Assembly: GCA_964187785.1 (NCBI GenBank)
Contig: OZ076409.1
Location: forward strand, 3,536,001-3,600,000
Length of the DNA stretch: 64,000 nucleotides
Direction of reading: 5' to 3'
Source: Amphiscolops sp. MND2022
Lineage: Eukaryota
Shown: piece after piece, positions 3,606 through 64,000 of the stretch
Layout of the letters: each line of letters starts with the position of its first letter
Numbering within the stretch: position 1 is the stretch's first letter
Program-made: the position numbers and the translations under genes
Notes under the pieces: model-generated
The model's database searches: none
What the model saw: the letters and a program-made list of their open reading frames with translations, nothing else
What the model was told of the DNA's origin: nothing

Positions 3606-5603
3606 CCGCTACCGCGCTCAGGAACACACAAAAAAGAAATTTGCCATACGTCGTCGAAGGGCATGCCTCGGCATGCCCACAGACTATGGGCGTCGGAACG
3701 CTATGTGGCGTTGTACTACAGACACGACGAAGCCGTACCGGGAGGGTGGGACCGACCGATAACGGTAAGAAAAGTAAATGTTATACTTTCTAAAGGTGAG
3801 ACTTGTTGTTTTCATTATTGATTTGTACCTTTCTCGACTAAAAAGTTTTAAAAAAATATCTTCGAGTTCAATTTTTTTTCCAAAGACCGAATGCAATCGT
3901 TATCTGACCTGATGGAAGGAACTAACGATATGATCGAATCACAAAATTAGGCATCGACAGCAACATCCTATAAACAAATGGTCTTTTTGTTGACAGTTTT
4001 TTGATGTGACAGCCTTCCGAAGTTGACACAAGGCCAACTTGAAAGGCTATCACAATATTCATTTAACAGGTGCTTGAAAAATATGCAAAAATTGTCCAGC
4101 AAGGATCGTAGAAAGAGCACATGTCAGCATTGTGAATGACATTTTCAATCAATTTGGGTCCGTAAGGTTGCGTTAGAAGTATATAAAGAGTTTTTAGGCA
4201 CGATCATAGCCATTCTATCTTAGCAAAGTAGCGTATTTTTTAGCTTCGGCTTTTTTTCTGCTACAAATGTAAGTCATCCGATGGGAATTATTTCGGAAAA
4301 CAAAAGAGATGATAGTTTCTGATCAACAACAGTATTCATCTATGTCCTAAATTTTGAATAAAGTAATTGAAAGTATTTTGCGAAGTTAGCGTTTCGAGAT
4401 AATGGGCTAAAAGTTTTAGGAAATATAGTACTATTTAAGAAAAAAGTGTCTCTTACCACCCCTTGAGCAGACCGCTTTCTTCAAAAACCTCATTTTAGTG
4501 CTGAAACTCACCCTACGCATTCAGTGTACATAGTAATTGGCAAAAATGAGTAAAATTTTGGAAAAATCACTTTTGACTGTGATCCCAGGCTTCCGAGATG
4601 TTTACTGCAACTGAGTAGTTTTGTTAAAAATAACGTCTTATCGCAACTCATATGTTATTGGGGCCACTGATACCAGTCCCAATCTTGTTTTCGAGTTTCA
4701 TGAGCCCCACTGGTTACGACAGAGTGAATAGTTTTGCTTCAAAAGTTGAAATTGAATTTTCGACCTATCAAAAAATGGGTTTTTGAGACAAAAATTTTCT
4801 AAGTTAAGTTCCGAATGACTGAAAAATGACTGAAGACCGGGTGAAAAAAATTTTTTAAAACTTTTTATTACTATAAATGGTTCCTACGTTGCCAGTAGGA
4901 CCGTTCTTGAGCAATAAGGCTATACCTGACAGGCCTTGATGGAAATTTTCTGTTGAAAATGACCAGTTTGTAAAATTAAACTAAGTTGTGAAATGCTTTT
5001 GAAACACCTAAGACCTCCAAAAAAATTTTATTTTCACATTGGATGCAAACTGTTGAGCGTTTGGCAGCGAGTAGGTTCTGACAGAAACCATGGATAGCAA
5101 GGTTTTTACTTTAAAGCGAATAAAAAAATTTTTCTGAGGTGTTTTTGTTGTTTTTGTTACTGATAGTTGTGAAAAATCAAGTTTAGTGGGTGAAAAAATC
5201 AAATTTTTGAAAAAATTAAAAACTTTTCATTTTTTGCATTTAGTGCATTGCCACAGTCACGAAATGAAGATTCCGAGCTTGTATAACTGTCAAAGTTCAA
5301 AAATTACTGCATTTCGAGATATTAGACAATTTCTAAAAAATTTTTCAAAATTCATCAATTTTTTGACCAAAAAACGGCCATAACTTTTTTTATAACGTTT
5401 CTATCGCTTAACGTCAGCAGGAACTTCCATTCGTATGCCCATTTTGGGGCCGCATGCAATCTACGATCAAAATCGTATGGTTATTTTTCGAGATCGGTGT
5501 TTTGCGTTTCGCTTTTGGTGTGTAATCTTTTGATCAGATAGCGGCCGCCAGGACCCTACCCCGCGGCCGAGATGAAGTTGGGGAAGAAACCCCCGCCACC
5601 TAG
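3606..5603 (+). repeat. Unit 1, A-type (1998 bp)
   Basis: Bounded by CACCTAG junctions; internal hairpin at ~4005-4054; A-body marker AAGTTAAGTTCCGAATGACTGAAAAATGACTGAAG. Confidence 0.9.
3659..3678. promoter_or_regulatory. GGGCATGCCT-CGGCATGCCC palindrome, a near-consensus p53-family response element (example copy; present at all 20 family-1 heads)
   Basis: Two abutting decamers match RRRCWWGYYY at 19/20 positions; also forms a 9-bp inverted repeat. Function is inferred. Confidence 0.45.
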
Positions 5604-6015
5604 CCCGGGATGTACGGGCGTCGTTAGGTATGTATTTGGTATATGTCGTCGAAGGGCATGCCTCGGCATGCCCACAGACGGTGGGCGTTGATGTAAAGTA
5701 TGTGGCGTTGACGTTAATTAAACTAAAATATGACGTTTCAGCTTCCATAATGAAACGTAATATTCAATTTGAACTTTTATAAATCTGTTACATACATTCC
5801 AATCATAACCATTTGTTAGGTAAATAGATTTCCTGGCATTTAGGACACATTTTGTATAAAAAAAATATTTTTGTCAACAATTAGCTCACTACTATTCTAA
5901 CAACGGAATCATGACGGCTTAGTTTTTGTCGTTGATACACTGTTGATGAAGCTCTAATTGGTACTAATTGAATATATACCTACCCAAAAACACTCTTGAT
6001 TAACGATTTTTGAAG

Positions 6016-6059
6016 GATAGCCCTTTCAAGTTGCCACCAGGCCAACTTGAAAGGCTATC
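6016..6059. other. Internal bulged hairpin, A/B class (GATAGCC.TTTCAAGTTG..CAACTTGAAAGGCTATC); example copy
   Basis: Inverted repeat with one extra base in the left arm; one copy in every A, B and B' unit. Confidence 0.85.
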
Positions 6060-7514
6060 AAAAGGTAACGGTTATGTTGGTTGAGGTTTCGGAGTCTCTG
6101 AAACTATATAGAAAAACTTTAATTTTTAAAAAATAGTCCTTAATAGTCGACAAAGGTACGCCGAAAGACATTTTAAAACCAAAAAACCTATCCTGTCACC
6201 AACGGTTTGGACTTCCGGTGCTATATACCGTTACCCCCCACAAGGTTTGATGACTATGTTCACTACTGCAAACCGTCGAAACACCTAATAGATACTTTTA
6301 TTTACAAAATACTAAACATTTGTACCCAATAGACACAAAATTTGACCATTTCCGGTCGTTTACGGTACCAGGGGGACTTTAGGGTCAACATAACGGTTAT
6401 GTCCGAATGCTCGCCTAACGTCCTCCCTTACATCATACAGTGTCCAAGCACCTATTACCACTCCTTCCGCATCTAAATGCCCTTCAAAAAGTACAAAAAT
6501 GGCAATTTTACTCACATAACGGTCATTTCCGGTCTCGAGGGGTAACGGGGGGTGACTGAAACTATATCCCCCAACTCGTCTCAATGAGTACTACAATAAG
6601 TTACCTAACGTTCCCCGGCTGGGACCGACCCTTTGGGCTCAAAAAGTGACATTTCCGGTCACATAGCGGTTAGGCTGGGGGGCCAAGTCAGTAACGGTGA
6701 TAGATAGCGGAAATCTGTTTGCCCCCCTGAAGGCACCATATCATGGGTATGAAACCTTGTAGTAGTGATGGACACCGTAGCTCCACGCGTTCACGAGATA
6801 TTTACCCCTCAATGCCCATTTTACTGTTTTAGCAGTAAAAAAAGGAGGCGGAAGCCCCATTTCCCGCTAACGGGTTGGTCCAGGGGGTCCCAAACCACAT
6901 GTTTCCGATAGGTCCTTGTCTAAACCTACTTTTGATATATGGCACCCGACGCGCTACTTCCACTCCTTCACACCGAAAATAGCGGTAAAACGTGGAAGGG
7001 GGCATTTTTCCCGCTCATATAACGGTCATTTCCCGTCCGGGGGGTAAACTGGGGTTGGCAAACTGCATGTCCCCCGCTTCGTCTCAAGGCCGTCCCCAAT
7101 ACATCACCTAACGACCCCGCGCTCCGACGACTCCTTCCGGGTCAAAAACCTGCGTTTCCGGAAAAATAACGTTTTGGGCGGGGGGGTACTTGGAGATAGC
7201 TTCAAGATAGAAAAATTTGGTTTGGACCTCCGGGGCCCCTGCAACACGGCCAAGAAACTTTTAGCAGGGTCCCAAAGTTTTAAATCAACAGAAAAAAAGT
7301 TATGTGGCCCAATATGAATTTTACCCCTAAAATGACCCCCTAACGGTCGCCCGTGTGGCCAGAAAAAAATTTTCCGGGGTATGGAACCCGGTGGGGGGCG
7401 CTAATTTTCGGAAAATCTGGTGGGGGCCGCTCCAACTTTAAAATCCTATGGTTAGATCACGAGATCCCGAATCCTATCCAAATTTTCTTAACGAAAGCTG
7501 GCAGCACTGAACTC

Positions 7515-7575
7515 GGATTCAGGACCCTACCCGAATCCTCCAAAAATTTTGTTGGGGTTTCCCCCCCGCACCTAG
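7515..7575 (+). other. Unit 3'-terminal structure (example): stem-loop with AGGACCCTACCC loop, GGGG/CCCC mini-hairpin, CACCTAG
   Basis: GGATTC(7515-7520)/GAATCC(7533-7538) flank the 12-nt loop; GGGGTTTCCCC precedes CACCTAG. Confidence 0.85.
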
Positions 7576-9580
7576 CCGCTACCGCACTTGAGAGTGCGGG
7601 AAAGGCTCATTTGGCATACGTCGTCGAAGGGCATGCCTCGGCATGCCCACGGACGGTGGGCGTTGATGTTGGTATGTGGCGTTGTTATACAAATCACAGG
7701 GTCATGACATAGGCTCAGATCATGGGTGACGGAAGACTGATAACGGAAGAGAAAACAAATGTGATAATATTCAAAGGTTAGAAGTTGTTATTTATTATTT
7801 AGAAATAAAATTATTTACCAAATAATAAACAAAAATGTCTTCGAGTTTATAGGTATTTTTTCAAACTCTGCATGCTATCGTCAGCTGACATGATGGAAGA
7901 TACTAACGGTAGTATACAATCACGAAAATAGGCATCGACAGCAAAATCCGATTAACAAATGGTAGTTTTGTTTATAGTTTTTGGTGGTGATAGCCTTCCC
8001 AAGTTGACACAAGGTCAACTTAAAAGGCTATCACAAGATTCAGTTTAAAGCTACATGTAAAATTTTCAAAAAATGTGCAGTCTGGATTGTAGAAAGAATA
8101 CATGTGAGGACTGTGAACGGTATTTCCAATCATATTGGGTCCATAAGGTTGCGTTAGAAGTATTTAAAGGGTATTTAGGCACAATCATCGCGTTTCTATC
8201 TTAGCAAAATAGCGTATTTTTTATCTTCTGCTTTCTCTTCTGCCATAAATGTAACCCATGCGAAGGTATTTTTTCGGAAAACAAAAAAAATTGAGAGGTT
8301 CTGATCAACCACAGTGTTCATTCATATTCTAACCTTAGAATAAAGTAGTTGAAAGCATTTTGCGAAGTTAGGTTTTTGAGATAATGGGCTAAAAATTTTG
8401 GAAAATATAGTACTGTATGGGAAAAAAATGTCTCATACACACCCTTGAGCAGGCCGATTACATCAAAAACCTCATTATAGTGCTGAAACTCATCCTACGC
8501 ACTCTGTGCACATAGTGATTGACGAAAATGAGTAATTTTTTGATGAAATCACATTTCACAGTGATCGCTGGCTTGCGAGATCTTTACCTCAATTGAGACG
8601 TATTGCTCAAAATAACGTCTTATCGCGACTCATATGTTATTGGAGCCATTGATACCAGTGTCAATCGTTGTTTTGAGTATCATAGGCCCCATGGGTTACG
8701 TCAGAGTTAATAATTTTGCTGAAAAATCTTAATTTCATTTTTCGACCTGACAAAAAATGGGTATTTTGGTCGAAATTTTTCTAAGTTAAGTTCCGAATGA
8801 CTGAAAAATGACTGAAGACCGGGTGAAAATATTTTTTAAAACTTTCTATTACTATAAATGGTTCCTACGTTGCCAGTGGGACCGTTCTATAACATTAAGG
8901 CTATAGCCGACAAGCCTCGATGAAAATATTGTGTTCAAAATGACCAATTTGTAAATTAAAACCATGTTGAGAAATCCTTGTGAAACATCTATGACCTCGA
9001 AAAAAATTTTAAATTCACACTGGATGCAAACTGTTGGGTGTTTGGCAGCGAGTAGGTTCCGACAGAAACCATGGATACCAAGATTTCCAATTTAAAGCAA
9101 ATAAAAATTCTTTTCTGATGTGTTTTTGACATATGAGGTACTGATAGTAGTGAAAAAAATTCAAAAATCTCGAATTTTCGAAAAATGTAAAAACTTTACA
9201 TCTTTTGTGTTCAGTGCAATGCCACAGCCACGAAATGAAGGTTCCAAGCTTGTTTCACAGTCAAAGTCCAAAAATTAACACATTTTGAGATATTAAGTGA
9301 AAAATTAGAAATTTCCCAAAAATGTTGAAATTTTGAACAAAAAATTGGCCATAACTTTTTATAAAGTTTTTAGAACGCTTAGCGTCAGCAGGAACTTCGT
9401 CTTGCAATAGGATTTGAGGGCCGCATGCAAATTTTGAGCAAATTCTAATGGTTAGATTAAATTTTAGGTCTTTTTTTTGCAATTTCTGCTACATACCGCT
9501 AGCTTAAGGCGGATCGTCGGCCGCCAGGACCCTACCCGTCGGCCGAATACAAACGGGGTGAAATTTCCCCGCCCACCTAG
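7576..9580 (+). repeat. Unit 3, A-type subtype A2 (2005 bp)
   Basis: Near-identical to units at 20343, 24326 and 45121; hairpin at ~7987. Confidence 0.9.
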
Positions 9581-12371
9581 CCGCTACCGCTTTAGTGACC
9601 TCGCAGGGGCGTGATTTGGCATACGTCGTCGAAAGGCATGCCTCGGCATGCCTACGGACGGTGGGCGTTGATGTTGGCATGTGGGCGTCGGCTTGAATTA
9701 CATTATGCGACGGTAAGGAGCGGTTTCACCTTTGATAAAAAGCATTACAGTTGGTGAAATTTTCAAGCCACTATAAACAGGCATCAGCCAACAATATTTG
9801 TTGGAAAATTCGTTTTCCTAAAATGTAGAGCACCAACGAAAGAATATAAAAAAATATGTTGTCAAACTTTGTTATCCTATTAAAAGAATCATGTTGAATT
9901 TCATCCAACAACGTTAGGAGACATGGTTTTCCTGATATTCAGTCCACAAATTAAAGGTTGAAAGTTTTTTGTCAAACATTTGTTTCTTACTTATCCTTTT
10001 AAAAGAATCATATGAAATTTTTTAACTATGGTTAAACTTTTGTTGAAGTTCAAATTGGCTATGGATAATAACAAAAACACTCAATCACACTGTCGCTGCG
10101 CAGTTGTGAAAGGATAGCCCTTTCAAGTTGACACAAGGTCAACTTGAGGGCTATCATATTGTAACGGTTATTGAGTTAATGGAGTCGAAACTTCAAGCTG
10201 ATAAAGTGAAAATGTTCAAAGTCTTCAAAAAGAAACAAAAGAGACAATATCGTAGCTATGATCCGCAATTACACGTCGATTGGCACTTCCAAACCAATTT
10301 ATTATCTTTACTTCCCAACGGGTTGGATTTCCGTGGCATTTTCCTATTTCTCACCTCATGTTTCCTGTCAAATTCTTTTCTTGAAGCTTTCTGACACCCT
10401 GAATGCACTTTGGTTTGATGAAATTACATGTTTATTCCAACAAAACACAGAAAAGACAAACTTTCTGAAATTTCTCGTGCCGCCGCAACTTCAGGGGCAT
10501 TATAACGGTCAAGTTCGTACGGTCATCTCACAACACCACAATCATCATAAAGTGACCAAAGACCTAATACAGCTACTTCCTGGCTTGAAGGACCTATCGA
10601 AAATAAAAAAAATTGTGAAAAAAATTTTCACTACATAACGGTCATTTTCGCTGTTAGTGTGACTTCCGAATCATAATAACGGTTATTTCAGATTGCTCGT
10701 TTCACACCAAAACTTTCATTGTATACTGTCCAAAGACATATTACCGATACTTCCTGCCCTAAATGGCCTTCAAAAAGTATAAAAATAACATTTTTCACTA
10801 CATAACGGTCGTTTCCGGTCCAACGGGTCAACGGGGGGTGACTAAAACTATATCCCCCAACTCGTCTCATTGAGTTCTACATAAAGTTACCTGACGTTCC
10901 CACGCTGGGACCAACCCTTTTGGCTCAAAAAATGACATTTCCGGTCACATAGCGGTTAGGCTGGGGGGCCAAGTCCGTAACGGTGATATATAGCGGTAAT
11001 CTGTTTTTCCCCCTGAAGGCACCGTATCATGGGTATGAAACCTTGTAGTAGTGATGGACACGATTGCTCCACGCGTTCACGAGATATTTACCCCTCAATG
11101 CCCGTTTTCCGGTTTTAGCAGTAAAAAAAGGAGGCGATCACCCTTATAACGGCTAACGGGTTGGGCCAGAGGGTCCCAAACAACATGTTCCCGGTTGGTC
11201 CTTGTCTTAACCTACTTTTGATATATGACACCCGACGCGCTACCCTCACTCCTTCACATCGGAAATAACGGGGAAAGTTGAAGGGGGTCAATTTTAAAAC
11301 TCACATAACGGTAATTTCCCGTCCGAGGGGTAAACCGGGGTCGGCAAACTACATGTCCCCCAACACGTCTCTAGATGCTCTACAAAACATTACTTAACGA
11401 CTCCACTCTCAGACGACTCCTTCCCGGTCAAAAAGGGCAATTTCCGGTAATATAGCGGTTAGGCTGGGGGGCAAAGTCCGTAACGGTGATAGATAGCGCT
11501 GATCTGTTTGCCCCCCTGAAGGCACCATGTCATGGGTATGAAACCTTGTAGGAGTGATGGACACGATTGCTCCACGCGTTCACGAGATAATTACACTTTA
11601 ATGCCCGTTTTACGGTTTTACCACCAAAAAAAGGAGGCGGTCACCCTATTTCCGGCTAACGGGTCCGTTCAAAGGGTCCCAAACCACATGTTTCTGATAG
11701 GTCCTTGTTTAAAGCTACTTTTGATATATAGCACTCGACACGCTATTCCGACTCCTTCACACCGGAAATTGCGGGGAAAATTGGAGGGGGGCATTTTTGA
11801 AACTCACATAACGGTCATTTCCCGTCCGAGGGGTAAACTGGGGTCGGCAAACTACATGTCCCCCACCACGTCTCCAGATGCTCTACAAAACATTACCAAA
11901 TGACTCCGCGCTCAGACGACTCCTTCCCGGTCAAAAAGTGCAATTTCCGGTAAAATAGCGGTTTGGGCGGGGGGCCAAGTCCGTAACGGTGCAAGATAGA
12001 AAATTTTTGTTTGGCCCCCCGTACCCACTGCATGATGCCCAACAAACCTTTACTAGTGACCGGACCTGCTAAAACGACGGGGGGAAAAGTTATTCACACT
12101 TTTATAAATTTTACCCCCTGATTGACCCCTAACGGTCGCTCGTGTACCCGTCACAACGAAACCACGGGTATGGAACCTGGTGGGGGGCGATCAGTGCCCA
12201 AAATCTGGGTGGGGGCCAAAAAATCATAAACTTCTGACGGGTGGAATCCGAAATCGGTCTCAAAACATCGAAAAATTTTCATACTACAAGAGTCTTTCAG
12301 TACTGAATGTTCGGTAGGGAACCCTACCCTACCTCACTATATTCTATTGGGGACAGCCCCCCGCCACCTAG
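9581..12371 (+). repeat. Unit 4, B'-type (2791 bp)
   Basis: Unique longer head; hairpin at 10113; three ~503 bp B sub-repeats (markers 10801, 11304, 11807). Confidence 0.85.
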
Positions 12372-14383
12372 CTGCTACCGCACTCCAGAGTGCGGGCAAC
12401 GCTAAATTTGGCATACGTCGTCGAAGGGCATGCCTCGGCATGCCCACAGACTATGGGCGTCGGAACGCTATGTGACGCGGCGTTGTAATAAGGACATACA
12501 TTGCGACGATGTTGGGGATGGCTGGGGATGATAACGGTCGAAAAGATAGAAGTTATACTTCCTAGTGGTTTCAATTATTCCAATTAGGTTTTTTATAATA
12601 TTTGTTTTTATTTTTTGTATACAAAAAAAAAAGAGAATTGTCTTCAAGTTCATACATTCTTATCAAACACTGAAAGCAATCGTTAGCTGACCTGATGGAA
12701 GGATCTAACGATAGGATCGAATTACGAAAATAGGCATCGACAGCAAAATCAAATTAACAAATGGTAATTTTGTTTATAGTTTTTTGTGGTGATAGCCTTC
12801 CCAAGTTGACACAAGGCCAACTTAAAAGGCTATCACAAGATTCAGTTTAAAGCTACATGTAAAATTTTCAAAAAAAGTGCAGTCTGGATTGTAGAAAGAG
12901 TACATGTGAGGACTGTGAACGGTATTTCCAATCATATTCGATCCATAAAGTTGCGTTAGAAGTATTTAAAGGGTATTTAGGCACAATCATCGCGTTTCTA
13001 TCTTGGCAAAATAGCGTATTTTTTATCTTCTGCTTTCTTTTCTGCCATAAATGTAACCCATGCGAAGGTATTATTTCGGAAAACAAAAAAAATGAGAGGT
13101 TCTGATCAACCACAGTGTTCATTCATATTCTAACCTTAGAATAAAGTAATTGAAAGCATTTTGCGAAGTTAGGTTTTTGAGATATTGGGCTAAAAATTTT
13201 GGAAAATACAGTACTATATGGGAAAAAAATGTCTCATACACCCCCTTGAGCAGGCCGATTACTTCAAAAACCTCATTATAGTGCTGAAACTCATCCTATG
13301 CACTCTGTGTACATAGTAATTGACAAAAATATGTAAACCTTTGGTGATCTCACATTTCACTGTGATCCCAGGCTTCCGAGATGTTTACTCCGATTTAGAG
13401 GTTTTGCTCTGAATAACGTCTTATCCCGACTCATATGTTATTGGAGCAACTGGTATCAGTCCCAATGGTGTTGTTGAGTATCATTAGCCCCACTGGTTAC
13501 GTCAGAGTAAAAAATTTTGCTTCAAGTGCTGAAATTCAAATTTCGACTTCACCAAAAATGGGTATTCGAGACGAAAATTTTCTAAGTTAAGTTCCGAATG
13601 ACTGAAAAATGACTGAAGACCTGGTGAAAATATTTTTTTAAAACTTTCTATTACTATAAATGGCTCATACGTTGCCAGTGGGACCGTTCTAAAACATTAA
13701 GGCTATAGCCGACAAGCCTCGATGAAAATATTGTGTTCAAAATGACCAATTTGTAAATTAAAACCAAGTTGAGAAATCCTTATGAAACACCTAAGACCTC
13801 GAAAAAAATTTTAAATTCACACTGGATGCAAACTGTTGGGTGTTTGGCAGCGAGTAGGTTCCGACAGAAACCATGGATACCAAGGTTTCCAATTTAAAGC
13901 AAATAAAAATTTTTTTCTGATGTGTTTTTGACATATGAGGTACTGATAGTAGTGAAAAAAATTTCAAAAGTCTCGAATTTTCGAAAAATGTAAAAACTTT
14001 ACATCTTTTGTGTTCAGTGCAATGCCACAGCCACGAAATGAAGGTTCCAAGCTTGTTTCACAGTCAAAGTCCAAAAATTAACACAATTTGAGATTTTTAG
14101 TGAAAAATTAGAAATTTCCCAAAAATGTTGAAATTTTGAACAAAAAATTGGCCATAACTTTTTATAAAGTTTATAGAACGCTTAGCGTCAGCAGGAACTT
14201 CGTCTTGCAATAGGATTTGAGGGCCGCATGCAAATTTTGAGCAAATTCTAATGGTTAGATTAAATTTTAGGTCTTTTTTTTGCAATTTCTGCTACATACC
14301 GCTAGCTTAAGGCGGATCGTCGGCCGCCAGGACCCTACCCGTCGGCCGAATACAAACGGGGTGAAATTTCCCCGCCCACCTAG
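12372..14383 (+). repeat. Unit 5, A-type subtype A3 (2012 bp)
   Basis: Similar to units at 26332 and 39852; hairpin at 12791. Confidence 0.9.
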
Positions 14384-47127: not shown

Positions 47128-50100
47128 CCGCTACCGCAATCGGGTGTAGATATAAAAAGTAGTTGGCATACGTCGTCGAAGGGCATGCCTCGGCATGCCC
47201 ACAGACGGTGGGAGTCGGAACGCTATGTGGCGTTGTAAAATGAAGACAAGCGAGAGACATGGTAAGGTGCTTGTTATGATGGATGATAAAAGTAGAAGAT
47301 ACCAAAATCAAAACAAATTATCAATTTTCATAAAAAAAAATTTTAAAAAATGTTAATCGGTTGTGATTTGGAAACGCTAAAGACGTGTTTATGTATTTAA
47401 ACTCTTCGCGAATGCAAAATTTGGATGACAGTCATTTGGCAAACGTACATTCCCAGAGAAGGGGATAGAATGAATGTACTTAATGGCATAAAAAAATAGG
47501 AAAAACAAAGACTTGTGAGTAAATTTTATCATAATAGATCGAAAACTTCCATCATGTACACTAAGCTAATGCCACCAAAGGAACCCACGCATACATGCTC
47601 GAATCGAAAATACTGCAATTTCTGAACGCTTTCCACGCCATTATTCATATAATAATTAGTTTCGCACTATTATGGTCAAAAATTGAACTATCCTCTAAAG
47701 ATCATAAATCAACGTCATCTTCAGATAAAGGTAAGTTCTACACGTTATTTATTTTAACTAAAATGATGCATTCCACATTCATTCCTTTACTATCTTTGTT
47801 GTGTAGACGTTTCATGATTTTGGAAGGCGGGAAAGTTTTGAGACAACTTGTATTCTTCCTGTCATACCTTTGTTCACTGGGTAATACAGTCGAACTTAAC
47901 TGCGAAAAATATGTATGTCTTATGGTTTTGTTCTGCAGAAATAAAAGGTGAAGCAAAAAATCTTGAAGTTATTAGAAGAATAATTATTCTTTCATCATTT
48001 CAGCTGTTACAGTAAGTGTTACAAAAGATAGAAAGATCTAAGTTTTTAGTTTTTGAAAAGTACATTCTCATCTCCCCGATAGGGAGATGGAATGTACTTA
48101 AGTGTTTTTTGTTATCGAATTGTTAAGATTGAAGTTGATTGGACGTATTCCATTGACTTTTCGATGAAACTTGGAATCCATTTACGTATTATCACATCTC
48201 AACCTTTTATGAAGCTCACATTCAAAAAACATCAAGTATATATTTTTTTGCTAATTTAGAATATTAGACAGGGTATATATGTGGAATGATTCACTTCTTA
48301 TATTGAACATATTATGGTTTTCTTCAGAATAAAATTGGTCTTTTTAATTATCGCCCAATGTTAATAACTTGTTTGGTATACTCTGAAAGTCATATGGAAA
48401 TGATAGAACCCCAAGAAGCTGGGGTTTTGATGAATATCTGACATTTTAATACTTAGGGTCAATTTTTCCGTGTGATTTTGGCCCATATTAGGAGGGTTTA
48501 AAATTTATAAATATTCATCAAAAGTTATTCTAAGAAAACTTCTGGTAATCTACAAAAAGAGTAGAGTTGATTGGTATGTGATAGTTTTCTGTGCTATTGT
48601 TATACGCCAAATGGCGTGCATTTGAAGTTTTTTAGGAAATGATATGTTTTTCTTCCTCAAAAAATCGGCTTTCCTAAATTTTGCTCAAAAACGCGCAAAA
48701 CCTGGTTTGGCATACTCTGTGGGCCATGTGGAGTTGATAGAACCTCAAGAAGCTGTGGTTTTGATGATTTTTAGACATTTTAAAATTTTAGGGTCAATTT
48801 TTTCGTGTAATTTTAGCCCATTTTCGGATGGTTCAAAATTTTTTATTATCCATCAAAATTCATTCAAAACAAAGTTCTAATAATCTACAATAGGAGTAGA
48901 GTTGATCGGTATATGATAGTTTTCTGTGCTATTCTTATACGCCAAATGGCGTGCATGTGAATTTTTTTTAGGAAATGTTATGTTTTTCTTTCCCAAAAAT
49001 GTCGGCTTTTCCACATATTGCTCAAAAACGGGTAAAACCTGTTTTAGCGTACTCTGTGGACCATGTGGAGTTGATAGAACCCCAAGAAGCTGTGGTTTTG
49101 ATGATTTTTCGACATTTTAATATTTTAAGGACAATTTTTTCGTGTAATTTTTGCCCACTTTTGGAGGATTTATATTTTTTTATTATCCGTCTAATTTTCA
49201 TTTAAACTAACTTCTAATCATCTACAATGAAAGTAGAGTTGATCGGTATGTGATAGTTTTCTGTGCTATTCTCATACGGCAAATGGCGTGCATTTGAAAT
49301 ATTTTAGGAAATGGTATGTTTTTCTTTCCCAAAAATGTCGGCTTTTTCACATATTGCTCAAAAACGGGTAAAACCTGTTTTAGCGTACTCTGTGGACCAC
49401 GTGGAGTTGATAGAACCCCAAGAAGCTGTGGTTTTGATGATTTTTTGACATTTTAAAATTTTAAGGTCAATTTTTTCGTGTAATTTTGGTCAATTTTTGG
49501 AGGGTTCAAAATTTTTTAATATTCTTCAAAATTCAATCAAAACAAAATTCTAATAGTCTACAATGGGAGTAGAGTTGATCGGTATATGATAGTTTTCTGT
49601 GCTATTCTTATACGTCAAATGGAGTGCATTTGAAATTTTTTAGGAAATGGTATGATTTTTAGGATTTTCGTCAAAAAAGTTTGCTTTTTAAATTTATTTA
49701 AATTGAAAAGATACGGGGTTATTACACATGTCTTATAATCAACTTTTTGAGCGGAATCCAATGGTGCCTTCGAAAAAATTATTTATCAGCTAACATTTTT
49801 AGTACTGCCAAAATAACCAAAAAAGGAAACAATTTTTTCTTGATTTTGCGATTTGTTCATCCGGACATGGTCCAAACACCAATACTAGCATTCTTCGATC
49901 ATAGTAATTGTTCTAACAATTCACCACAACCTTAAGAAACAATTCAAAGAGATTTTGAATATTAACTTCGTGTGACAAAGGGTTGAAATATTTGAAGAAG
50001 TTAGTAGAAAAGAGGAAGTTTTTGCCTTATACAACACCTTGAGCAACCGATATTACGGTAGAACCTCATTTCACGACTGAAACTAACACAACGGGTTCTG

Positions 50101-51896
50101 TGTATTTAGTGATTGACGAAAAAGAAATATTTTTTGATGAAATCACTTCTCACGGTGATTCAAGGCTTTCAACATGTTTACTTCAGAATGAGAGTTATTG
50201 TGTTAAAAACATACAGTCGCATCTCATATGTTATTAGAGCATATGGTGATAGTCTTTTTGTTGTTGTTGAGTATTTTGGGCCCAACGGTTTGCTTCAGAG
50301 TGAAAAGTATTGCTTCCAAAACCAAATTTGAATTTGCGACCTGACAATAATGGGTTTCCGAGAAAAAAATTTAAAACCTAAGTGTTAGTAAATAGACCTC
50401 GATCTTATTTATTGCGAATGTCAGCATTGTTAATGGTGTTTTCGAACCTCTTGGGTAAAAAAAGTGGCGTCAGAAGTTGTTGAAACGTTTTTGTTTTGCA
50501 TCATTGGAAGTCTGTCCGTCCAAATTTTTGATTTTTGGAGCTACTGGTATTTTTCCTGTCACATATGTAACGCATGCGAAGGGTTTTTTTCTAAAAACCA
50601 AATAGTTAATAGTTTCTGATCAACCAAACTGTTCATCTATATTCTAAGCTTTCACTAAAGTAACTGAAAGTACTTTGTCGAGTTAGTTTTACCAGATAAT
50701 GGGCTAAAATTTTTGGAAAATACAGTAGTATATGGGAAAAAAATGTCTCATACCACCCCTTGAGCAACCCGAATCCTTCAAAAACCTCATTATAGTGCTG
50801 AAACTCACCCTACGCACTCTGTGCACATAGTAAATGGCGAAAATGGGTAAATTTTTGATGAAATCACATTTCACTGTGATCCCAGGCTTGCGAGATGTTT
50901 ACTTCGATTTAGAGGTTTTGCTCTGTATAACGTCTTATCGCGGATCATATGTTATCGAAGCTACTGATACCAGTCCCAATCGTGTTTTTGCGTATCATGG
51001 GCCCCACTGGTTACGTCAGAGTTAATAATTTTGCATAAAAAGGTGAATTTCAATTTTCGACCAGAGGAAAAATGGGTTTTTGAGACGAAATTTTTCTAAG
51101 ATAAGTTCCGAATGTCTGAAAAATGACTGAAGAACGGGTGAAAAAAATTTTTTATAACTTTGTATTTCTATAAATGGTTAATACGTTGCCAGTAGGACCA
51201 TTCGTGAGCAATAAGACTCTATCCGACACGCCTCGATGGAAATATGATGTTGAAAATGACCAATTTGTAAATTGAAACTAAGTTGTGAAATCCTTGTGAA
51301 ACACCTATGACCTCGAAAAAAAATTTATATTCACATTGGATGCAAACTGTTGAGTGTTTGGCTGCGAGTAGGTTCCGACAGAAACCATGGATACCAAGGT
51401 TTCTAAATTTAAGCAAATAAAAATTTTTTTCTGAGGTGTTTTTGTCACATTGGTTACATATAGTAGTGAAACCCGAGTCAATTTGGTCAAATTTTTGGAA
51501 AATGTAAAAGTTTTAGATCTTTTGGGTCTAGTGCCTTGCTAGGGCAAAGAATCGAAGGTTTAAACCAGTGATAGGTCGATTGTCACAAGTTTTTCAATTT
51601 TTTGCATTCGAGATGTTTGTAAAATTTATCTCAAAAATACCTCAAAATTCGCACCAAAAAGTGGCTATATCTCGTTACACAATGAAACCATCGCTTAACG
51701 TCAGCAGGAACTTCGTCTTGTATGCCCAAATTAGGGCCGCATGCAAAAAATGGTACAAATCCTATGGTTCAAAAAAAAGTTCGGTGCCGGAAAAATTTTC
51801 TCTAGTATATAGCGCCGTAAGCTTGGTAAATAGAAGCTCCCGACAGGACCCTACCCGCGGTCGCAAAAAAAGTGGAGATATATCCCCCCCACCTAG
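47128..51896 (+). repeat. Unit 20, C-type (4769 bp)
   Basis: Near-identical to unit 13; 4x336 bp repeat at ~48330-49690. Confidence 0.9.
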
Positions 51897-54800
51897 CGAT
51901 GGAGCGATTTAGAGCACTGCTAGTAAAAGGCCTAAACAAAACGGCACAACTTTTGCTAATGGATTATGAAAAAAAATTGAATCTGGCACTTTTGTGTAAG
52001 TTATTCCGGGATTCAACGATAAATATCATCACCCTGCCAAGTAAATGTCTATGGTGGCTGCCGTCAACTTAACAAAAAGGTATACTGAGGCTTTTTGCCT
52101 TCTAAGCAAGCACCGTTGTTCCCTCGAGATGCTGCGCAACCCTCGGAACACCGGTGACAAAGAATTTTGCTAACCGATTTGCAAAAACTTAATTATCACT
52201 TTAAGGCATTTTTTGGCATAACTTATGCCCTAGGGCTGTTTTGCTTGGTACAGAAGGTACACCCCAGCCCCCTAATCAGTTTCAAGTTTGCTGCAGCTGC
52301 TTCCAGTACTGCATCAAATCCAACTCAAAGTGATACAATTAATTCTCATCCAATCACTCATAATGACATACACCCCAAAAATCGAATTTTTAATTATGAT
52401 CCCCCCAGGTGTATGAATTATGTTTTTGAAACCGCCATTGAATGCTGATAATTTTTGACCTTATTGTCAGAGACCGTGCGGACCGTTCCGGCTTCTCAAA
52501 TCAGTGATTTGATGATAGTGATTCAGTCAAAAAAATTATTTTGGCACTTTTCGGCACTTTGGTTGCCCCCCGGGGGAAATTTTTTGCACCGTTCGAAAGA
52601 CCGTTGACCGCTGATGATTTTCATAAAAGTGCACTTTGCCGCTATCGGTATTCCTTCAAGGTGAAAATGGCCTTTGATTCGGTGATTGATTAATCAATGT
52701 TAAAAAAGGTTAAAAAAACCAAAAAAACGCAAAAAAACCCTCGAAAATGAATTTTCCCAGAAAAACGTCAGCAGGAAAAAGTTCTTAGAATTTGCTCTTC
52801 TATCTGTGTGCAAATTTTCAGCCAAATCCAATGGTTCATTTTCGAAATCGTCTCCGGAGCACCCCTGATCGGGGTTTGTAATAGATGATATGATGGGCTC
52901 GGCTCGGGGCCCCTCCCCCGGCTCGCAAAATTTTTTTGAGGGCTGATATGCCCGGACCACCTAGCGATGGAGCGATTTAGAGCACTGCTAGTAAAAGGCC
53001 TAAACTTAACAGCGCAACCTTTGCTAATGGAGTATGAAAGAGAAATATTGAGGCTAGCAATTTTTTGGAAGTTATTCTGGGATTGAACGATAAATATCAT
53101 CACCCTGACGAGTGAATGTCTATGGTGACTGCCGTCAACTTAACTCAAGGGATTTTGTGGTTTTTTGCTTTCTAAGCAAGCACCGTTGTTCCTGCGAGAT
53201 GCTGCGCAACTCTCGGAACACCGGTGACAATAAATTTTGCTGAACGATTTGCAATAACCTAATCATCACTTTGAGGCATTTTTGGCACAACTTATGCCCT
53301 AGGGCTGTTTTGCTCGATACAGAGGGTAAACCCCAGCCCCATAATCAGTTTCAAGTTTGCTGCAGCTGCTTCCTGTGCTGCATCATATCCAACTGAAAGT
53401 GATACAATTATTTCTCATCCAATCACTCATAATGACATATACCCCAAAAAATCAACTTTTTTCTGATGTCTCCTACAGGTGAACGAATTACATTTTTGGA
53501 ACCCCCATTGGATGCTGACAATTTTTGACCTTATTGTCCGAGACCGTGCGGACCGTTCCGGCTGCTCAAATCATCAATTTGATCAAAGTGATTCAGTCAA
53601 AAAAATAATTTTGGCACTTTTCGGCACTTTGGTTTCCCCCGGGGGGAAATTTTTTCGGACCGTTCGAAAGAACGTTGACCGTTGATGATTTTCATAAAAG
53701 TGCACTTTGCCGCTACGGGCTTTCCTTCATGGTGAAAATGGCCTTTGATTCGGTCATTGATTAATCAAAGATGAAAAAAGATGAAAAAAACCAAAAAAAA
53801 CCCAAAAAAACCCTACAAAATGAATTTTCCTGGAAAAACGTCAGCAGAAAAAAATTCTTAAATTTTTGAGATAAAGCCACATGCAAAGTTTCAGACAAAC
53901 CCTACGGGTGAATTTCGAGATCGGTTAAAATACTTCGCAATCCTGAAGGTAGGAATTGATAGAATGTGCTCGGCTCTCGGGACCCTCCCCGGCCTCGCAA
54001 TATTTTCTGAAGCGATTTAGAGCACTGCTAGGTAGAGGCTTAAACAAAACAGTTGAAAGTTTGTTACTGAAGTATGACACAAACAAATATCCCACGCTAA
54101 ATCTTTTGTGTATGTTGTTCACAATTCAACAATAAAAATATCATCACACTGCCGAAAAAGGCCAATGGTGACCTCCGTCACGTCACCAAAGAGGTATGTT
54201 GGGTTTTGCGTTCGAAACAAGCACCGTTGTTCCTGCGAGATGCTGCGCAACTCTCGGAACACCGGTGACAATAAATTTTGCTGAACGATTTGCAATAACC
54301 TAATCATCACTTTGAGGCATTTTTTGGCACAACTTATGCCCTAGGGCTGTTTTGCTCGATACAGAGGGTAAACCCCAGCCCCATAATCAGTTTCAAGTTT
54401 GCTGCAGCTGCTTCCTGTGCTGCATCATATCCAACTGAAAGTGATACAATTATTTCTCATCCAATCACTCATAATGACATATACCCCAAAAAATCAACTT
54501 TTTTCTGATGTCTCCTACAGGTGAACGAATTACATTTTTGGAACCCCCATTGGATGCTGACAATTTTTGACCTTATTGTCCGAGACCGTGCGGACCGTTC
54601 CGGCTGCTCAAATCATCAATTTGATCAAAGTGATTCAGTCAAAAAAATAATTTTGGCACTTTTCGGCACTTTGGTTTCCCCCGGGGGGAAATTTTTTCGA
54701 ACCGTTCGAAAGACCGTTGACCGTTGATGATTTTCATAAAAGTGCACTTTGCCGCTACGGGCTTTCCTTCATGGAGAAAATGGCCTTTGATTCGGTCATT

Positions 54801-55076
54801 GATTAATCAAAGATGAAAAAAGATGAAAAAAACCAAAAAAAACCCAAAAAAACCCTACAAAATGAATTTTCCTGGAAAAACGTCAGCAGAAAAAAATTCC
54901 TAAATTTTTGAGATGAAGCCACATGCAAAGTTTCAGACAAATCCTACGGGTGAATTTCGAGATCGGTTAAAATACTTCGCAATCCTGAAGGTAGGAATTG
55001 ATAGAATGTGCTCGGCTCTCGGGACCCTCCCCGGCCTCGCAATATTTTCTGATGGGCATCCCCCTTGACCACCCAG
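51897..55076 (+). repeat. Family-2 (E-type) units x3: 51897-52964, 52965-54010, 54011-55076 (~1.05 kb each)
   Basis: Head (CGATGG)AGCGATTTAGAGCACTGCTAG; hairpin CACCGTTGTTCC..GGAACACCGGTG at 52111, 53181 and 54222; GG(A/G)CCC(C)TCCCC tail box. Confidence 0.9.
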
Positions 55077-57153
55077 TGGAGGCAAAGCTACCAATTACCA
55101 GGGGGCCGAACGGTACTGTCTGTTCTCAATTCATGTATAACTTGTTCCACTTTGGGGTCACTGATGTGAATTTTTGCCGATGCACATCGCAACGACGTAC
55201 ATAATCATGTCGAACAAAACTAAACAGTGACTGCCTTCGGTCGTAACAAGTATCTACAGCCTTCCTTCCGGGTCACCGTTGTTCCTGCGTGCTGCTGTGC
55301 ATCCCTCGGAACACCGGTGACAAATTAAATTACGTTTTAAAATCGTGCTACTTATGCATTTGCCTCAACCCTGAGTATTTTTCAAATACTTACTGAAACT
55401 GGTATATCAAGCTGGTGAAAGCGGTCAATATTAAAAATAAACCCATTTTGACGCCGTTGACGCGATAATTAATGTGATTTTTGAATTCCTGGTATAAAAA
55501 TACAATGGAAACTGAAAAATTTTTTTTTTGAAAAAATTCGCAATTTTTAGAATTTTTGTAGAACTTTTGTAGAACTTTTTTATTTTTTATTTTTTATCCT
55601 GGCAACGTGATGTTGAAAACACATCGACTGCACTGCTACCGTTCAAGTAAACACCATCTCATCCAAAGTTCGGAAGTTATGACGCGATGACCGGATAATT
55701 CACAATTTTCCACTCATTTATCCCCTTCTATCTCTCAGCCTAGTATCACCAGCCTAATGATTTTTGGCATGCAAACACCTGACATCATTTATGCCTCGCA
55801 TGCAAAGTATCAGCCAATTGTATCCACATGCTGCAGATATCGCAGCGAAAAAGTACCGAAACAGGGTGAAAAAACCGATCATTTGCTCATAACTTCCCGC
55901 CAAGTAATAGGATCATGTTTGACCAGCAGAACATCATTTGTACATCGGCAAGATAAGTACACATGCAAAGTTTAAAGAAGTTTTATCGGTTCAATTCGAA
56001 AATCGCCGTTTTTTGACTGGTGTGCTAGATGATATAGTTCGACACGCGAAAATTAAGCTCGGCATCGGGACCCTCCCCGGCCTCGCACTAAATAATGTGG
56101 GGAACTACCCCGGACCACCCAGTGGAGGCAAAGGTACAATCACGAGAAAGGCCGTAATGACAATTTAGAGATAAGCAATGAGGCGAAAATCACAGGATAA
56201 CGACCATCAATTGTTTGCTCGGTACAAAAGTTGCTCAAAAGTGTTCTTTTATCTGCAATATTTCATCCTATAACGCACGCGCGAAGCACCGCAGGTGATG
56301 TACAGGGCATGGTTGTTTGTTATCACCGTTCTTCCTCCGAACTGCTTCGCGGTCCTCCGGAGAACGGTGATGTTGTTATTTACAATTCAACAAAAGTTTA
56401 CTGACACATTAAGTTGCAACAACTGAAGCAACAGTTCAGTATTGTCTCATGTACCTTTTCTGACCTCTGAAACCCCTTTAATTGTCACCGCAAGTGCAGA
56501 GTCACTTCTTTTTCGCGTCCAAAATGTGAAAAAGCATCGGAAAACGAAAAATTTTTTTTTTGAAAAATTCGCAACTTTTAGAATTTTGGTTGAACTTTTG
56601 TAGAACTTTTATGTTTTTTATTTTTTATCCTGACCAAGCGATGTTGAAAACACATCGACTGCACTGCTACCGCTCAAGTAAACACCATCTCATCCAAAGA
56701 TCGGAAGATTTGACGCGATGACCAGAAAATTGACGATTTTTAACTTCTTTTTCCTCTTCTATCTCTCAGCCTAGTATCACCAGCCTAATGATTTTTGGCA
56801 TGCAAACAGCTGACATCATTTATGCCTCGCATGCAAAGTATCAGCCAATTGTATCCACATGCTGCAGGTATCGCAGCGAAAAAGTACCGAAAATGGGTGA
56901 AAAACCCGATCATTTGCTCATAACTTCCCGCCAAGGGATAGGATCATGTTTGACCAGCAGAACATCAGTCATACATCGGCAAGATGAGTGCACATGCAAG
57001 GTTTCAAGAACTTTTATCGGTTCAATACGAAAATCGCCGTTTTTTGACATGTGATCTATAGGATATAGTACGACACGCGAAAATTATGCTCGGCATCGGG
57101 ACCCTCCCCGGCCTCGCACTAAATAATGTGGGGAACTTCCCCTGACCACACAG
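55077..57153 (+). repeat. Family-3 (F-type) units x2: 55077-56122, 56123-57153
   Basis: Head TGGAGGCAAAG; hairpins at 55272-55321 and 56322-56371; 3' ~600 bp shared; ends GACCACCCAG / GACCACACAG. Confidence 0.85.
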
Positions 57154-63977: not shown

Positions 63978-64000
63978 TATTGTAGTAATAAGTGAACTTC

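What the first reader, a model, noticed from the sequence alone, without database searches (positions are those of the whole stretch)
4005..56371. Internal bulged hairpin always sits at about one fifth of unit length
Seen (hairpin-start offset / unit length): 400/1998, 413/1972, 414/2005, 533/2791, 420/2012, 387/1975, 923/4761, 924/4763, 933/4769, 264/1276, 215/1068, ~196/1046, 200/1031. All are 0.19-0.21 across a 4.6-fold size range and three unrelated hairpin sequences (GATAGCC.., GTACATTC.., CACCG..). Inference: a geometric constraint between the junction and a second cis site, such as a second-strand origin on a single-stranded circle, a replication-timing balance, or a folding/packaging rule. 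I know of no description of such scaling.
Basis: partly seen in the sequence, partly recalled or inferred. Interest (0 to 1): 0.88.

Follow-up and report, generated by a model that had tools for sequence, protein, structure and literature searches.

The report
Hairpin at one-fifth of transposon length
In head-to-tail arrays of rolling-circle (Helitron-like) jumping genes, one strong DNA hairpin sits one fifth of the way along each element, whether the element is 1,000 or 15,000 bases long; I found no description of such proportional placement, and its cause is still unknown.

Summary
Window 1-57153 is part of a roughly 150-kb head-to-tail array of Helitron-like (HLE2/Helentron-type) rolling-circle transposons. 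Units end in ...CACCTAG. An unbiased 60-nt DNA-fold scan of all 59 units of the array puts the strongest internal hairpin (H) at 0.18-0.22 of unit length in 56 of 59.

Across 16 length classes (1,031-15,501 bp) the offset is s = 1.5 + 0.1994 L, with log-log slope 0.99 and r2 0.998. The classes carry at least five unrelated hairpin sequences and mostly unrelated arms.

- a giant Rep-PIF1 helicase protein with an SLX1-like GIY-YIG nuclease domain
- a second conserved ORF in the short arm

In the transposase sense, H therefore lies 80% in, one fifth from the 3' end.

H is best read as a third cis-acting structural signal whose relative position is kept by selection. How a 4:1 ratio could be sensed is inference only. 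Searches of the held paper library found no description of such a rule.

The parts
1..57153 (-). Head-to-tail array of non-autonomous Helitron-like units. Families: A ~2.0 kb, B ~2.0 kb, B' 2,791, C ~4.76 kb, D 1,276, E/E' 1.03-1.07 kb. All are in one orientation. Transposase sense is the minus strand.
   Evidence: Junction list; family matrix; orientation from the antisense RepHel ORF of the neighbouring autonomous units.
57154..64000 (-). First 6.8 kb (transposase-sense 3' part) of an 18,814-bp autonomous element (AUT1b) that runs on to window +75967. It carries ORF2 and, beyond the window, the RepHel ORF.
   Evidence: The RepHel ORF (at least 2,553 aa; 2,816 aa in the whole unit) has Helitron_like_N, PIF1 and GIY-YIG domains and a weak OTU match.
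60184..60215 (-). Internal hairpin H of AUT1b: a perfect 14-15 bp stem (GCTTGATTTGCACGC / GCGTGCAAATCAAGC). Offset 3,030 of 18,814 = 0.161.
   Evidence: (I13).
58254..59261 (-). ORF2 (335 aa) in the short arm of AUT1b. It is conserved in the second autonomous family (23% identity, E 3e-11). An OB-fold ssDNA-binding function is a lead only.
   Evidence: no Pfam family.
4005..4054 (-). H, unit 1 (A, 1,998 bp), 0.200. GATAGCC type.
6008..6063 (-). H, unit 2 (B, 1,972 bp), 0.205. GATAGCC type.
7987..8034 (-). H, unit 3 (A, 2,005 bp), 0.205.
10113..10155 (-). H, unit 4 (B', 2,791 bp), 0.191.
12789..12836 (-). H, unit 5 (A, 2,012 bp), 0.207.
14788..14846 (-). H, unit 6 (B, 1,994 bp), 0.203.
16775..16824 (-). 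H, unit 7 (A, 1,990 bp), 0.199.
18751..18800 (-). H, unit 8 (A, 1,975 bp), 0.194.
20760..20807 (-). H, unit 9 (A, 2,012 bp), 0.207.
22767..22810 (-). H, unit 10 (B, 1,971 bp), 0.209.
24737..24784 (-). H, unit 11 (A, 2,006 bp), 0.205.
26747..26794 (-). H, unit 12 (A, 2,010 bp), 0.206.
29262..29303 (-). H, unit 13 (C, 4,761 bp), 0.193. GTACATTC type.
33497..33544 (-). H, unit 14 (A, 1,986 bp), 0.198.
36011..36051 (-). H, unit 15 (C, 4,763 bp), 0.194.
40258..40305 (-). H, unit 16 (A, 2,000 bp), 0.203.
42115..42153 (-). H, unit 17 (D, 1,276 bp), 0.206. GTACATTC type.
43530..43585 (-). H, unit 18 (B, 1,993 bp), 0.202. Here it is second strongest, after a hairpin at 0.631.
45532..45579 (-). H, unit 19 (A, 2,007 bp), 0.205.
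48058..48099 (-). H, unit 20 (C, 4,769 bp), 0.195.
52111..52156 (-). H, unit 21 (E, 1,068 bp), 0.200. CACCG type.
53181..53226 (-). H, unit 22 (E, 1,046 bp), about 0.20.
54222..54267 (-). H, unit 23 (E, 1,066 bp), 0.198.
55272..55321 (-). H, unit 24 (E', 1,046 bp), 0.186.
56322..56371 (-). H, unit 25 (E', 1,031 bp), 0.193. The stem differs from type E by changes on both arms.
7576..7690 (-). Representative transposase-sense 3' terminal block (RTS). It holds the small hairpin CCGCACT..AGTGCGG next to the junction and the bulged hairpin CGTCGAAGGGCATGCC TC GGCATGCCCACGGACG, 52-56 nt from the junction. The block is shared by families A-D and H.
   Evidence: (20 copies, 0 expected).
9506..9580 (-). 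Representative transposase-sense 5' terminal block (LTS). It holds a conserved 12-nt motif (+ strand AGGACCCTACCC) between arms that covary among families, then a GGGG..CCCC stem, then CACCTAG.
   Evidence: covariation score 0.254 against 0.131 in shuffles, 0 of 500 as high; slid controls 0.10-0.17.

Best explanation
The units are Helitron-like rolling-circle transposons of the Helentron/Helitron2 (HLE2) kind. A few are autonomous elements of 13.7-18.8 kb; the rest are non-autonomous derivatives. They have inserted head to tail next to one another's ends.

Besides the two terminal blocks, every element carries a third cis-acting signal, H. H is a 13-20 bp, often bulged, hairpin. Its shape is kept while its sequence is replaced between lineages.

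In transposase sense the layout is 5' end (LTS), long arm, H, short arm, 3' end (RTS), with long arm to short arm = 4.0 +/- 0.2. On the strand that the Rep-helicase would peel off 5' to 3', H is therefore exposed late, after four fifths of the element.

I infer three things:
- H folds on that single strand, or extrudes as a cruciform.
- H is read by a structure-specific activity. Candidates are host priming of the complementary strand, as at the single-strand origins of rolling-circle plasmids and phages, or the SLX1-like GIY-YIG nuclease domain fused to the element's own Rep-helicase.
- Elements transpose well only if the two arms keep a 4:1 ratio.

The offset grows with the first power of length. 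The process that senses the ratio should therefore run along the DNA at a constant rate on both arms, as a race would: for example, the helicase finishing the last fifth while synthesis or coating proceeds back over the first four fifths.

Shown here: the element type, the three conserved blocks, the scaling and the strand orientation. Inferred: that H is functional, what reads it, and the race.
For: Element type:
- The minus-strand ORF of at least 2,553 aa has Helitron_like_N (29.5 bits, cut-off 28.9), PIF1 (E 2e-10) and GIY-YIG (E 1.6e-9) domains.
- A second autonomous family has a 2,377-aa ORF with the same domains. It is only 31% identical.
- The GIY-YIG domain matches SLX1 best (4xlg, E 1.8e-11).
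- There are at least 1,107 plus 1,139 terminus-pattern matches in the genome.

Scaling:
- The strongest internal hairpin lies at 0.18-0.22 in 56 of 59 units.
- Over 16 classes, s = 1.5 + 0.1994 L, log-log slope 0.992 +/- 0.011, r2 0.998.
- Checks on units fetched afterwards fitted: AUT2, 2,737 of 13,674 = 0.200, the strongest of 3 hairpins at or below -12 in that unit; the 15,501-bp unit, where the only hairpin at or below -12 is at 0.199; and units of 4,899 (0.203), 2,379 (0.190) and 1,389 bp (0.219).

Selection rather than descent:
- Families share only about 75 nt of RTS, about 50 nt of H and about 60 nt of LTS. The arms are otherwise unrelated.
- Family G lengthened its long arm by triplicating an LTS-proximal segment, and it also has a longer short arm than D (451 against 254-264).
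- B' differs from B by separate length changes in both arms.
- Arm segments are replaced by unrelated sequence of the same length, with the register kept to 2-5 nt (F against F2, D2 against D3, E' against E3).
- There are five unrelated H sequences, with changes on both arms within the CACCG lineage.

Strand: H is more stable on the minus (transposase-sense) strand in 38 of 56 units, on the plus strand in 10, and equal in 8.

Background: the role of single-strand origins in rolling-circle replication is described in PMC5714925 (passages read).
Against: - There is no direct evidence that H does anything. No reads, nick maps or assays were available.
- One autonomous copy with an intact 2,816-aa ORF breaks the rule (0.161). 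Its extra 3.3 kb is not a repeat found elsewhere in the genome, so it cannot be dismissed as a recent nested insertion.
- Within family A the long arm is fixed at 1,592-1,599 bp while the short arm varies from 383 to 417 bp. Any constraint is therefore no tighter than about +/- 4-5%, and the arms do not covary within a family.
- All the data come from one genome and two transposase lineages. The families exchange modules, so the 16 classes are not fully independent.
- I know of no molecular ratio sensor for transposons. A 4:1 race is an ad hoc proposal.
- Eukaryotic priming on single-stranded DNA does not normally need a dedicated origin (established knowledge, recalled).
Confidence: 0.4

Rival explanations
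1. There is no positional function. The 1:4 layout is inherited from the autonomous elements, where H simply lies between the Rep-helicase gene block and ORF2. It persists because derivatives arise by recombination among elements of the same size class. The constancy would then be history plus survivorship.
For: Both autonomous families have H between upstream genes and ORF2 at 0.20. Small families keep the last 610-770 bp of an autonomous element as most of their long arm. Modules are swapped between elements of equal size. Arms do not covary within family A.
Against: Deletion derivatives have no reason to keep proportions. E' keeps about 610-750 bp of AUT1's 12.4-kb long arm, yet its short arm is 195-199 bp rather than 3.1 kb. 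Nine or more distinct arm-length pairs between 1 and 15.5 kb all give 3.6-4.3. Short arms of different classes are unrelated in sequence, so their lengths are not inherited as sequence.
Confidence: 0.17
2. H is a gene-expression signal, such as a terminator, processing site or boundary between the Rep-helicase transcript and ORF2. Non-autonomous elements carry it as baggage, or use it for a non-coding transcript.
For: H is intergenic in both autonomous families, upstream of ORF2 on the same strand. A T-rich run precedes H on the plus strand in many families.
Against: Non-autonomous units have no ORFs but keep H with turnover that preserves the structure. An expression signal does not explain proportional placement.
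Confidence: 0.1
3. H is a former or alternative 3' termination hairpin. The short arm would be sequence added downstream when termination was bypassed, ending at a newer terminus.
For: Helitron 3' ends are defined by hairpins, and bypass of them adds downstream DNA (established knowledge, recalled). H lies on the 3' side. Short arms are the most variable part.
Against: No terminal motif (CTAG or CCAG) flanks H. No unit in the 59 examined ends at H. Bypass would add arbitrary lengths, not one quarter of the long arm.
Confidence: 0.08
4. A geometric or packaging rule applies. The circular intermediate is held on an assembly in which the junction and H must sit a fixed angle apart (72 degrees = one fifth), or it must fold in a set way.
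For: The ratio is 0.2009 +/- 0.0075, indistinguishable from 1/5. ORF2 may be an ssDNA-coating OB-fold protein (lead only).
Against: Circular single-strand folds of six units show no shared long-range or rod-like structure on either strand. No further conserved words occur at 0.4, 0.6 or 0.8. A flexible DNA circle has no fixed angular map (inference).
Confidence: 0.05
5. Chance, or selective picking of hairpins by the reader.
For: None after testing.
Against: In the unbiased scan, 56 of 59 units fit. Units fetched afterwards fitted.
Confidence: 0.01

Closest known systems
Helentron / Helitron2 (HLE2) rolling-circle transposons and their non-autonomous HINE / DINE-1 derivatives (PMC4067079 and PMC11417382, passages read)
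   Same: A giant Rep plus PIF1-helicase protein with an extra C-terminal nuclease. A weak OTU match. Structured ends, with stem-loops close to the 3' end. Abundant non-coding derivatives that share only the termini. Internal tandem repeats in some copies.
   Different: The nuclease is an SLX1-like GIY-YIG domain, not the AP endonuclease of Helentrons; GIY-YIG is reported for one HLE2 family, HelenSM92, in PMC11417382. Terminal inverted repeats are at best 8 nt, and only in some units. The units form long heterogeneous head-to-tail arrays. They carry a third, internal hairpin at a proportional position, which the passages I read do not describe.
Single-strand origins (sso / ssi) of rolling-circle plasmids and phiX174-type phages (PMC5714925, passages read)
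   Same: A hairpin element distinct from the nick site that works on the displaced single strand. H lies where it would be exposed late. That plasmid sso sites lie just upstream of the nick site is recalled, not read.
   Different: I know of no proportional placement rule for sso sites. Those systems are bacterial, whereas this is a eukaryotic transposon. Activity was not tested here.
Canonical Helitrons (HLE1)
   Same: A Rep plus PIF1 helicase, a hairpin a few bases before a CTAG-like 3' end, and no obvious target duplication at the one array edge seen.
   Different: The transposase-sense 5' end is CTAGGTGG or CTGGGTGG, not TC. Both ends are structured. The protein carries an added nuclease domain.
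Replichore balance in bacterial chromosomes (origin opposite terminus/dif; recalled)
   Same: It is the only familiar case in which the position of a cis site is set as a fraction of replicon length, because two processes travel the two arms.
   Different: There the ratio is 1:1 and the two processes are known replication forks. Here the ratio is 4:1 and the processes are unknown.

Membership tests
HLE2 (Helentron/Helitron2 group of Helitron-like elements) | Autonomous copies encode a HUH Rep domain fused to a PIF1-type helicase | tested here: met
   AUT1: Helitron_like_N 29.5 bits (cut-off 28.9), PIF1 E 2.2e-10. AUT2: Helitron_like_N 40.3 bits, PIF1 E 6e-11.
HLE2 (Helentron/Helitron2 group of Helitron-like elements) | Short terminal or subterminal inverted repeats of 12-16 nt at both ends | tested here: inconclusive
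   Only a 7-8 nt inverted match (GGTGGGCG about 80 nt inside the RTS against CGCCCACC before TAG), in 4 of 25 representative units.
HLE2 (Helentron/Helitron2 group of Helitron-like elements) | [quoted passage not shown] | tested here: met
   In families A-D and H, the CCGCACT..AGTGCGG and GGCATGCC hairpins lie within about 110 nt of the transposase-sense 3' end. Families E/E' and AUT1 show no hairpin at or below -11 there.
HLE2 (Helentron/Helitron2 group of Helitron-like elements) | Insertion between T and T | tested here: inconclusive
   Only one array edge was seen (...GACCACCCAG|CTATAAGAAATC at window +100885). The left edge was not located. No empty site was available.
HLE2 (Helentron/Helitron2 group of Helitron-like elements) | Rep-helicase falls in the HLE2 clade in a phylogeny | not tested
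   No reference HLE1 or HLE2 proteins were on hand. Homologues found are unnamed.
Helentron sensu stricto | C-terminal apurinic/apyrimidinic (Exo_endo_phos) endonuclease | tested here: not met
   Pfam finds GIY-YIG instead in both families. The best solved relative is SLX1.
Canonical Helitron (HLE1) | 5' TC and 3' CTRR ends, with a hairpin about 11 nt before the 3' end | tested here: not met
   The transposase-sense 5' end reads CTAGGTGG or CTGGGTGG. The 3' hairpin followed by TAGCGG|CTAG is compatible, but the junction CTAG is palindromic and so ambiguous.
Single-strand origin of rolling-circle replicons (function, not homology) | Strand-specific hairpin that primes complementary-strand synthesis on the displaced strand | not testable with these tools
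   Only indirect evidence: H is more stable on the transposase-sense strand in 38 of 56 units, on the other strand in 10, and lies at 80% of the strand that would be displaced.

The most novel reading that the evidence does not exclude
These transposons obey a length-proportional ruler. Transposition needs the third hairpin to divide the element 4:1 whatever its size, because two processive events run along the two arms and must finish together. The hairpin, cut or primed by the element's own SLX1-like nuclease or by host factors, sets the start of one of them. To my knowledge this would be the first scale-free rule for placing a cis element in any mobile element. It would also give a direct handle on the unseen single-strand stage of eukaryotic rolling-circle transposition.
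Probability: 0.3. Interest if true: 0.9.

Novelty: new variant of a known kind. Interest (0 to 1): 0.8.

Why it matters
Helitron-like elements reshape eukaryotic genomes, yet the steps after strand excision are known from very few systems. This family carries a third cis signal that is conserved in shape and placed as a fixed fraction of element length over a 15-fold size range. Unrelated filler sequences are also held to the same lengths.

Together these imply that the machinery measures relative arm length. No current model of rolling-circle transposition predicts that. The rule can be tested directly with mini-elements.

It also gives a practical annotation aid: the hairpin offset predicts unit length and the other boundary, and this worked on three units here. 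Finally, it points to a clade of Rep-helicase-GIY-YIG elements that carry no name in any source I searched and that build arrays of 100 kb or more.

Tried and rejected
- **Rod-like or long-range folding of the single-stranded circle.** I made circular DNA folds of 6 units on both strands. They share no common long helices.
- **Origin/terminus-type strand asymmetry.** GC and AT skews of the short and long arms show no consistent switch at H.
- **Further conserved words at scaled positions.** Only low-complexity 9-mers and the terminal block are shared by 7 or more of 12 families.
- **Same-length unrelated arms as saturated homologues or transition hypermutation.** Ungapped identity is 0.31-0.41 against a background of 0.25-0.29. 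Purine/pyrimidine identity is about 0.55-0.62 against 0.50. Rejected.
- **The extra 3.3 kb of the 18.8-kb unit as a nested repeat.** It matches only itself in the genome.
- **Left edge of the array.** Not located. A start predicted from a hairpin at -52698 showed no terminal block.
- **Terminal inverted repeats.** Weak.
- **RNAalifold on the LTS.** It chose a small hairpin inside the conserved motif. My flanking stem was tested separately.
- **Public sequencing runs for the autonomous element.** None was listed, and no RNA holder was listed.
- **Metagenome scan with the RTS hairpin.** One 1,172-bp contig (L040) carries a D-like unit with H 274 nt after the junction, but the contig ends before the unit does.
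- **Earlier notes of this scan for this genome.** None exist.

Full report
**What the region is.** The window lies in a 1.07-Gb eukaryotic genome. Direct-repeat and self-BLAST analysis shows units joined head to tail, all on one strand. Each unit ends (plus strand) in three features: a conserved motif AGGACCCTACCC flanked by complementary arms, a GGGG..CCCC stem, and CACCTAG or CACCCAG. In families A-D and H the next unit begins with a block of about 110 nt that holds the bulged hairpin CGTCGAAGGGCATGCC-TC-GGCATGCCCACAGACG (20 exact cores, 0 expected). With 100 kb fetched on each side, the array runs from about window -50606 to +100885, where it abuts unrelated DNA (...GACCACCCAG|CTATAAG). It holds 59 units.

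**Families.** There are several families (for E/E'):
- A, about 2.0 kb
- B, about 2.0 kb, GC-rich, with a body unrelated to A
- B', 2,791 bp
- C, about 4.76 kb, with A-like sequence and a 336-bp x4 tandem repeat
- D, 1,276 bp
- E and E', 1.03-1.07 kb, with a different 5' block

Two large units of 18,814 and 15,501 bp follow.

**Element type and orientation.** The large units carry a minus-strand ORF of 2,816 and 2,853 aa. It has Helitron_like_N, PIF1 and a C-terminal GIY-YIG domain, plus a weak OTU match.
- The GIY-YIG part is closest to the structure-specific nuclease SLX1 among solved structures (E 1.8e-11).
- A second autonomous family (AUT2, C1:23.99-24.01 Mb; 2,377-aa ORF, same domains) is only 31% identical in protein.
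- Both families have a further ORF of 339 or 389 aa in the short arm (23% identity, E 3e-11). A language-model look-up places it near OB-fold ssDNA binders (scores about 0.9, a lead only).
- Twenty-seven unnamed relatives with the same domain set exist in public assemblies.

The units are therefore Helitron-like rolling-circle transposons. Their layout (structured ends, 3' stem-loops, added nuclease) matches the HLE2 group as described in PMC4067079 and PMC11417382 (passages read). They differ in having GIY-YIG in place of the AP endonuclease, and their inverted repeats are weak. The transposase sense is the window's minus strand.

**The observation.** A 60-nt sliding DNA fold finds a strong hairpin at 0.186-0.209 of unit length in each of the 25 units in the window. 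In family A it is the only peak at or below -11 kcal/mol apart from the two terminal blocks. Over the whole array, ignoring the terminal blocks, the strongest hairpin is at 0.18-0.22 in 56 of 59 units. Two of the exceptions have H as runner-up, at 0.202 and 0.191. The third is the 18,814-bp unit (0.161).

**New units tested after the rule was stated.**
- 15,501 bp: the only hairpin at or below -12 is at 3,091 (0.199).
- 4,899 bp: 995 (0.203).
- 2,379 bp: 451 (0.190).
- 1,271 bp: 253 (0.199).
- Further 4.9-kb, 4.76-kb and 1.03-kb copies: 0.195-0.207.
- 1,389 bp: 0.219.
- AUT2: 2,737 of 13,674 bp = 0.200, the strongest of three hairpins at or below -12 (end confirmed by the pattern hit).

Coordinate-only comparisons of five diverged AUT2 copies give 0.199-0.201. 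These are one family and add little independence.

**Regression.** Over 16 classes, s = 1.5 + 0.1994 L, with log-log slope 0.992 +/- 0.011, r2 0.998 and ratio 0.2009 +/- 0.0075. With the 18.8-kb unit included the slope is 0.967. The junction-proximal GGCATGCC hairpin does not scale: it stays 52-56 nt from the junction.

**Independence and constraint.**
- Families share only about 75 nt of the 3' block, about 50 nt around H and about 60 nt of the 5' block. The arms are otherwise unalignable.
- H comes in at least five unrelated sequences (GATAGCC.., GTACATTC.., CACCGTTGTTCC.., GCTTGATTTGCACGC, GTCAGTTTAAGCC), all 13-20 bp stems, several with internal loops.
- The same hairpin type occurs at very different sizes: GATAGCC at 1.39, 2.0, 2.79 and 4.9 kb, and GTACATTC at 1.27, 2.38 and 4.76 kb. 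The ratio is the same each time.
- Where descent can be traced, both arms changed. G enlarged its long arm by triplicating the segment derived from the last 770 bp of AUT2, and its short arm is 451 against 254-264 nt in D-class relatives.
- B' differs from B by a longer unrelated short arm, a 470-bp replacement after H, and an internal duplication.
- Unrelated sequences occupy arms of equal length. D, D2 and D3 are 1,276, 1,271 and 1,270 bp. A and B are both about 2.0 kb. F and F2 share 3 kb in the middle but have unrelated flanks of the same size, with the register kept to 2-5 nt. This is not hypermutation.
- Within family A the long arm is 1,592-1,599 bp while the short arm ranges from 383 to 417 bp. 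The tolerance is therefore a few per cent.

**Mechanism.** The shape of H is conserved while its sequence turns over. It is present in every non-coding derivative. It is somewhat more stable on the transposase-sense strand (38 units against 10, 8 equal, of 56). These points mark it as a cis-acting structural signal on the strand that a Rep-helicase would displace. On that strand it is exposed after four fifths of the element, which resembles the single-strand origins of rolling-circle replicons (PMC5714925 passages). The fused SLX1-like nuclease is an obvious candidate reader of a stem-loop or cruciform.

The first-power scaling argues for a sensor that travels along both arms, that is a timing balance. 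It argues against a diffusion or looping process, which would scale with a higher power of length (inference). I could test none of this.

I found no support for a rod-like fold, skew switches or extra scaled motifs. The intact 18.8-kb copy at 0.161 shows the rule is not absolute. Alternatively, that copy may no longer be mobile.

**Novelty.** Full-text searches for Helentron + tandem + hairpin (20 papers), Helitron + GIY-YIG + OTU (3 papers), Helitron + 'single-strand origin' (1 paper) and Helitron + 'internal hairpin' (0 papers) found no description of an internal hairpin or of proportional placement. The passages I read in PMC4067079, PMC11417382 and PMC5714925 did not mention either. I did not read those papers in full, nor their supplements. 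The element family is a new variant of a known kind. I could not find the positional rule in print.

Noticed in passing
window 10210-10638 (+), inside unit 4 (B'): A 142-aa open frame fills the roughly 470-bp segment that B' has and B lacks, just after H. It gives a weak Pfam match to the influenza PB2 6th domain (E 7.4e-6, 26.1 bits, cut-off 25). Its only PDB matches are PB2 C-terminal domains (E 0.4-0.95). It may be a fragment of an orthomyxovirus-like endogenous sequence captured by the transposon. I only observed it.
   Followed up: partly
window 121-1369, 29605-30865, 36282-37619, 48401-49660: Each 4.76-kb C unit carries about four copies of a 336-bp tandem repeat in its long arm. This resembles the central repeats of HINE/DINE-1 elements.
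   Followed up: no
L033/L037 (F against F2), L034/L038 (D2 against D3), window 56123-57153 against L037:110-1141: Modules are replaced with their length preserved. Related elements share a central block at 70-90% identity, while their flanking segments are unrelated yet equal in length to within 2-5 nt. Element and arm lengths seem to be constrained in themselves, in discrete size classes.
   Followed up: partly
window 54010 and 55052/55076; window +95635/+95655, +96705/+96728: Some E-type junctions are imprecise. At 54010 the last 23 or so nt of the terminus, and the first bases of the next unit, are missing (...CGCAATATTTTCTGA|AGCGATTTAGAGC).
   Followed up: no
L019:2342-2899 (-) and L039 C-terminal part of the 2,377-aa ORF: The nuclease domain fused to the Rep-helicase is of GIY-YIG type and closest to SLX1, a structure-specific endonuclease. 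It is not the AP endonuclease of Helentrons.
   Followed up: partly
G000:C4:39.95-39.985 Mb (not fetched): Part of ORF2 of the 15.5-kb element (query 1426-1868) matches, at 64-66% DNA identity, a tandem array with a period of about 1,408 bp on another chromosome. This may be a host gene family or another repeat related to ORF2.
   Followed up: no
L040 (metagenome contig OBOP01004400.1, 1,172 bp): An environmental contig carries a D-like unit of the same family, with the junction ...CACCTCG|CCGGGG and a GTACATTC-type hairpin 274 nt downstream.
   Followed up: partly
G000:C1:70.4-76.5 Mb and C2:102.4-103.9 Mb (coordinates only): Most terminus matches and many intact Rep-helicase ORFs of about 2,375 aa cluster in a few megabase-scale regions, in the opposite orientation to the window's array. 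These regions may be built largely of such arrays.
   Followed up: no
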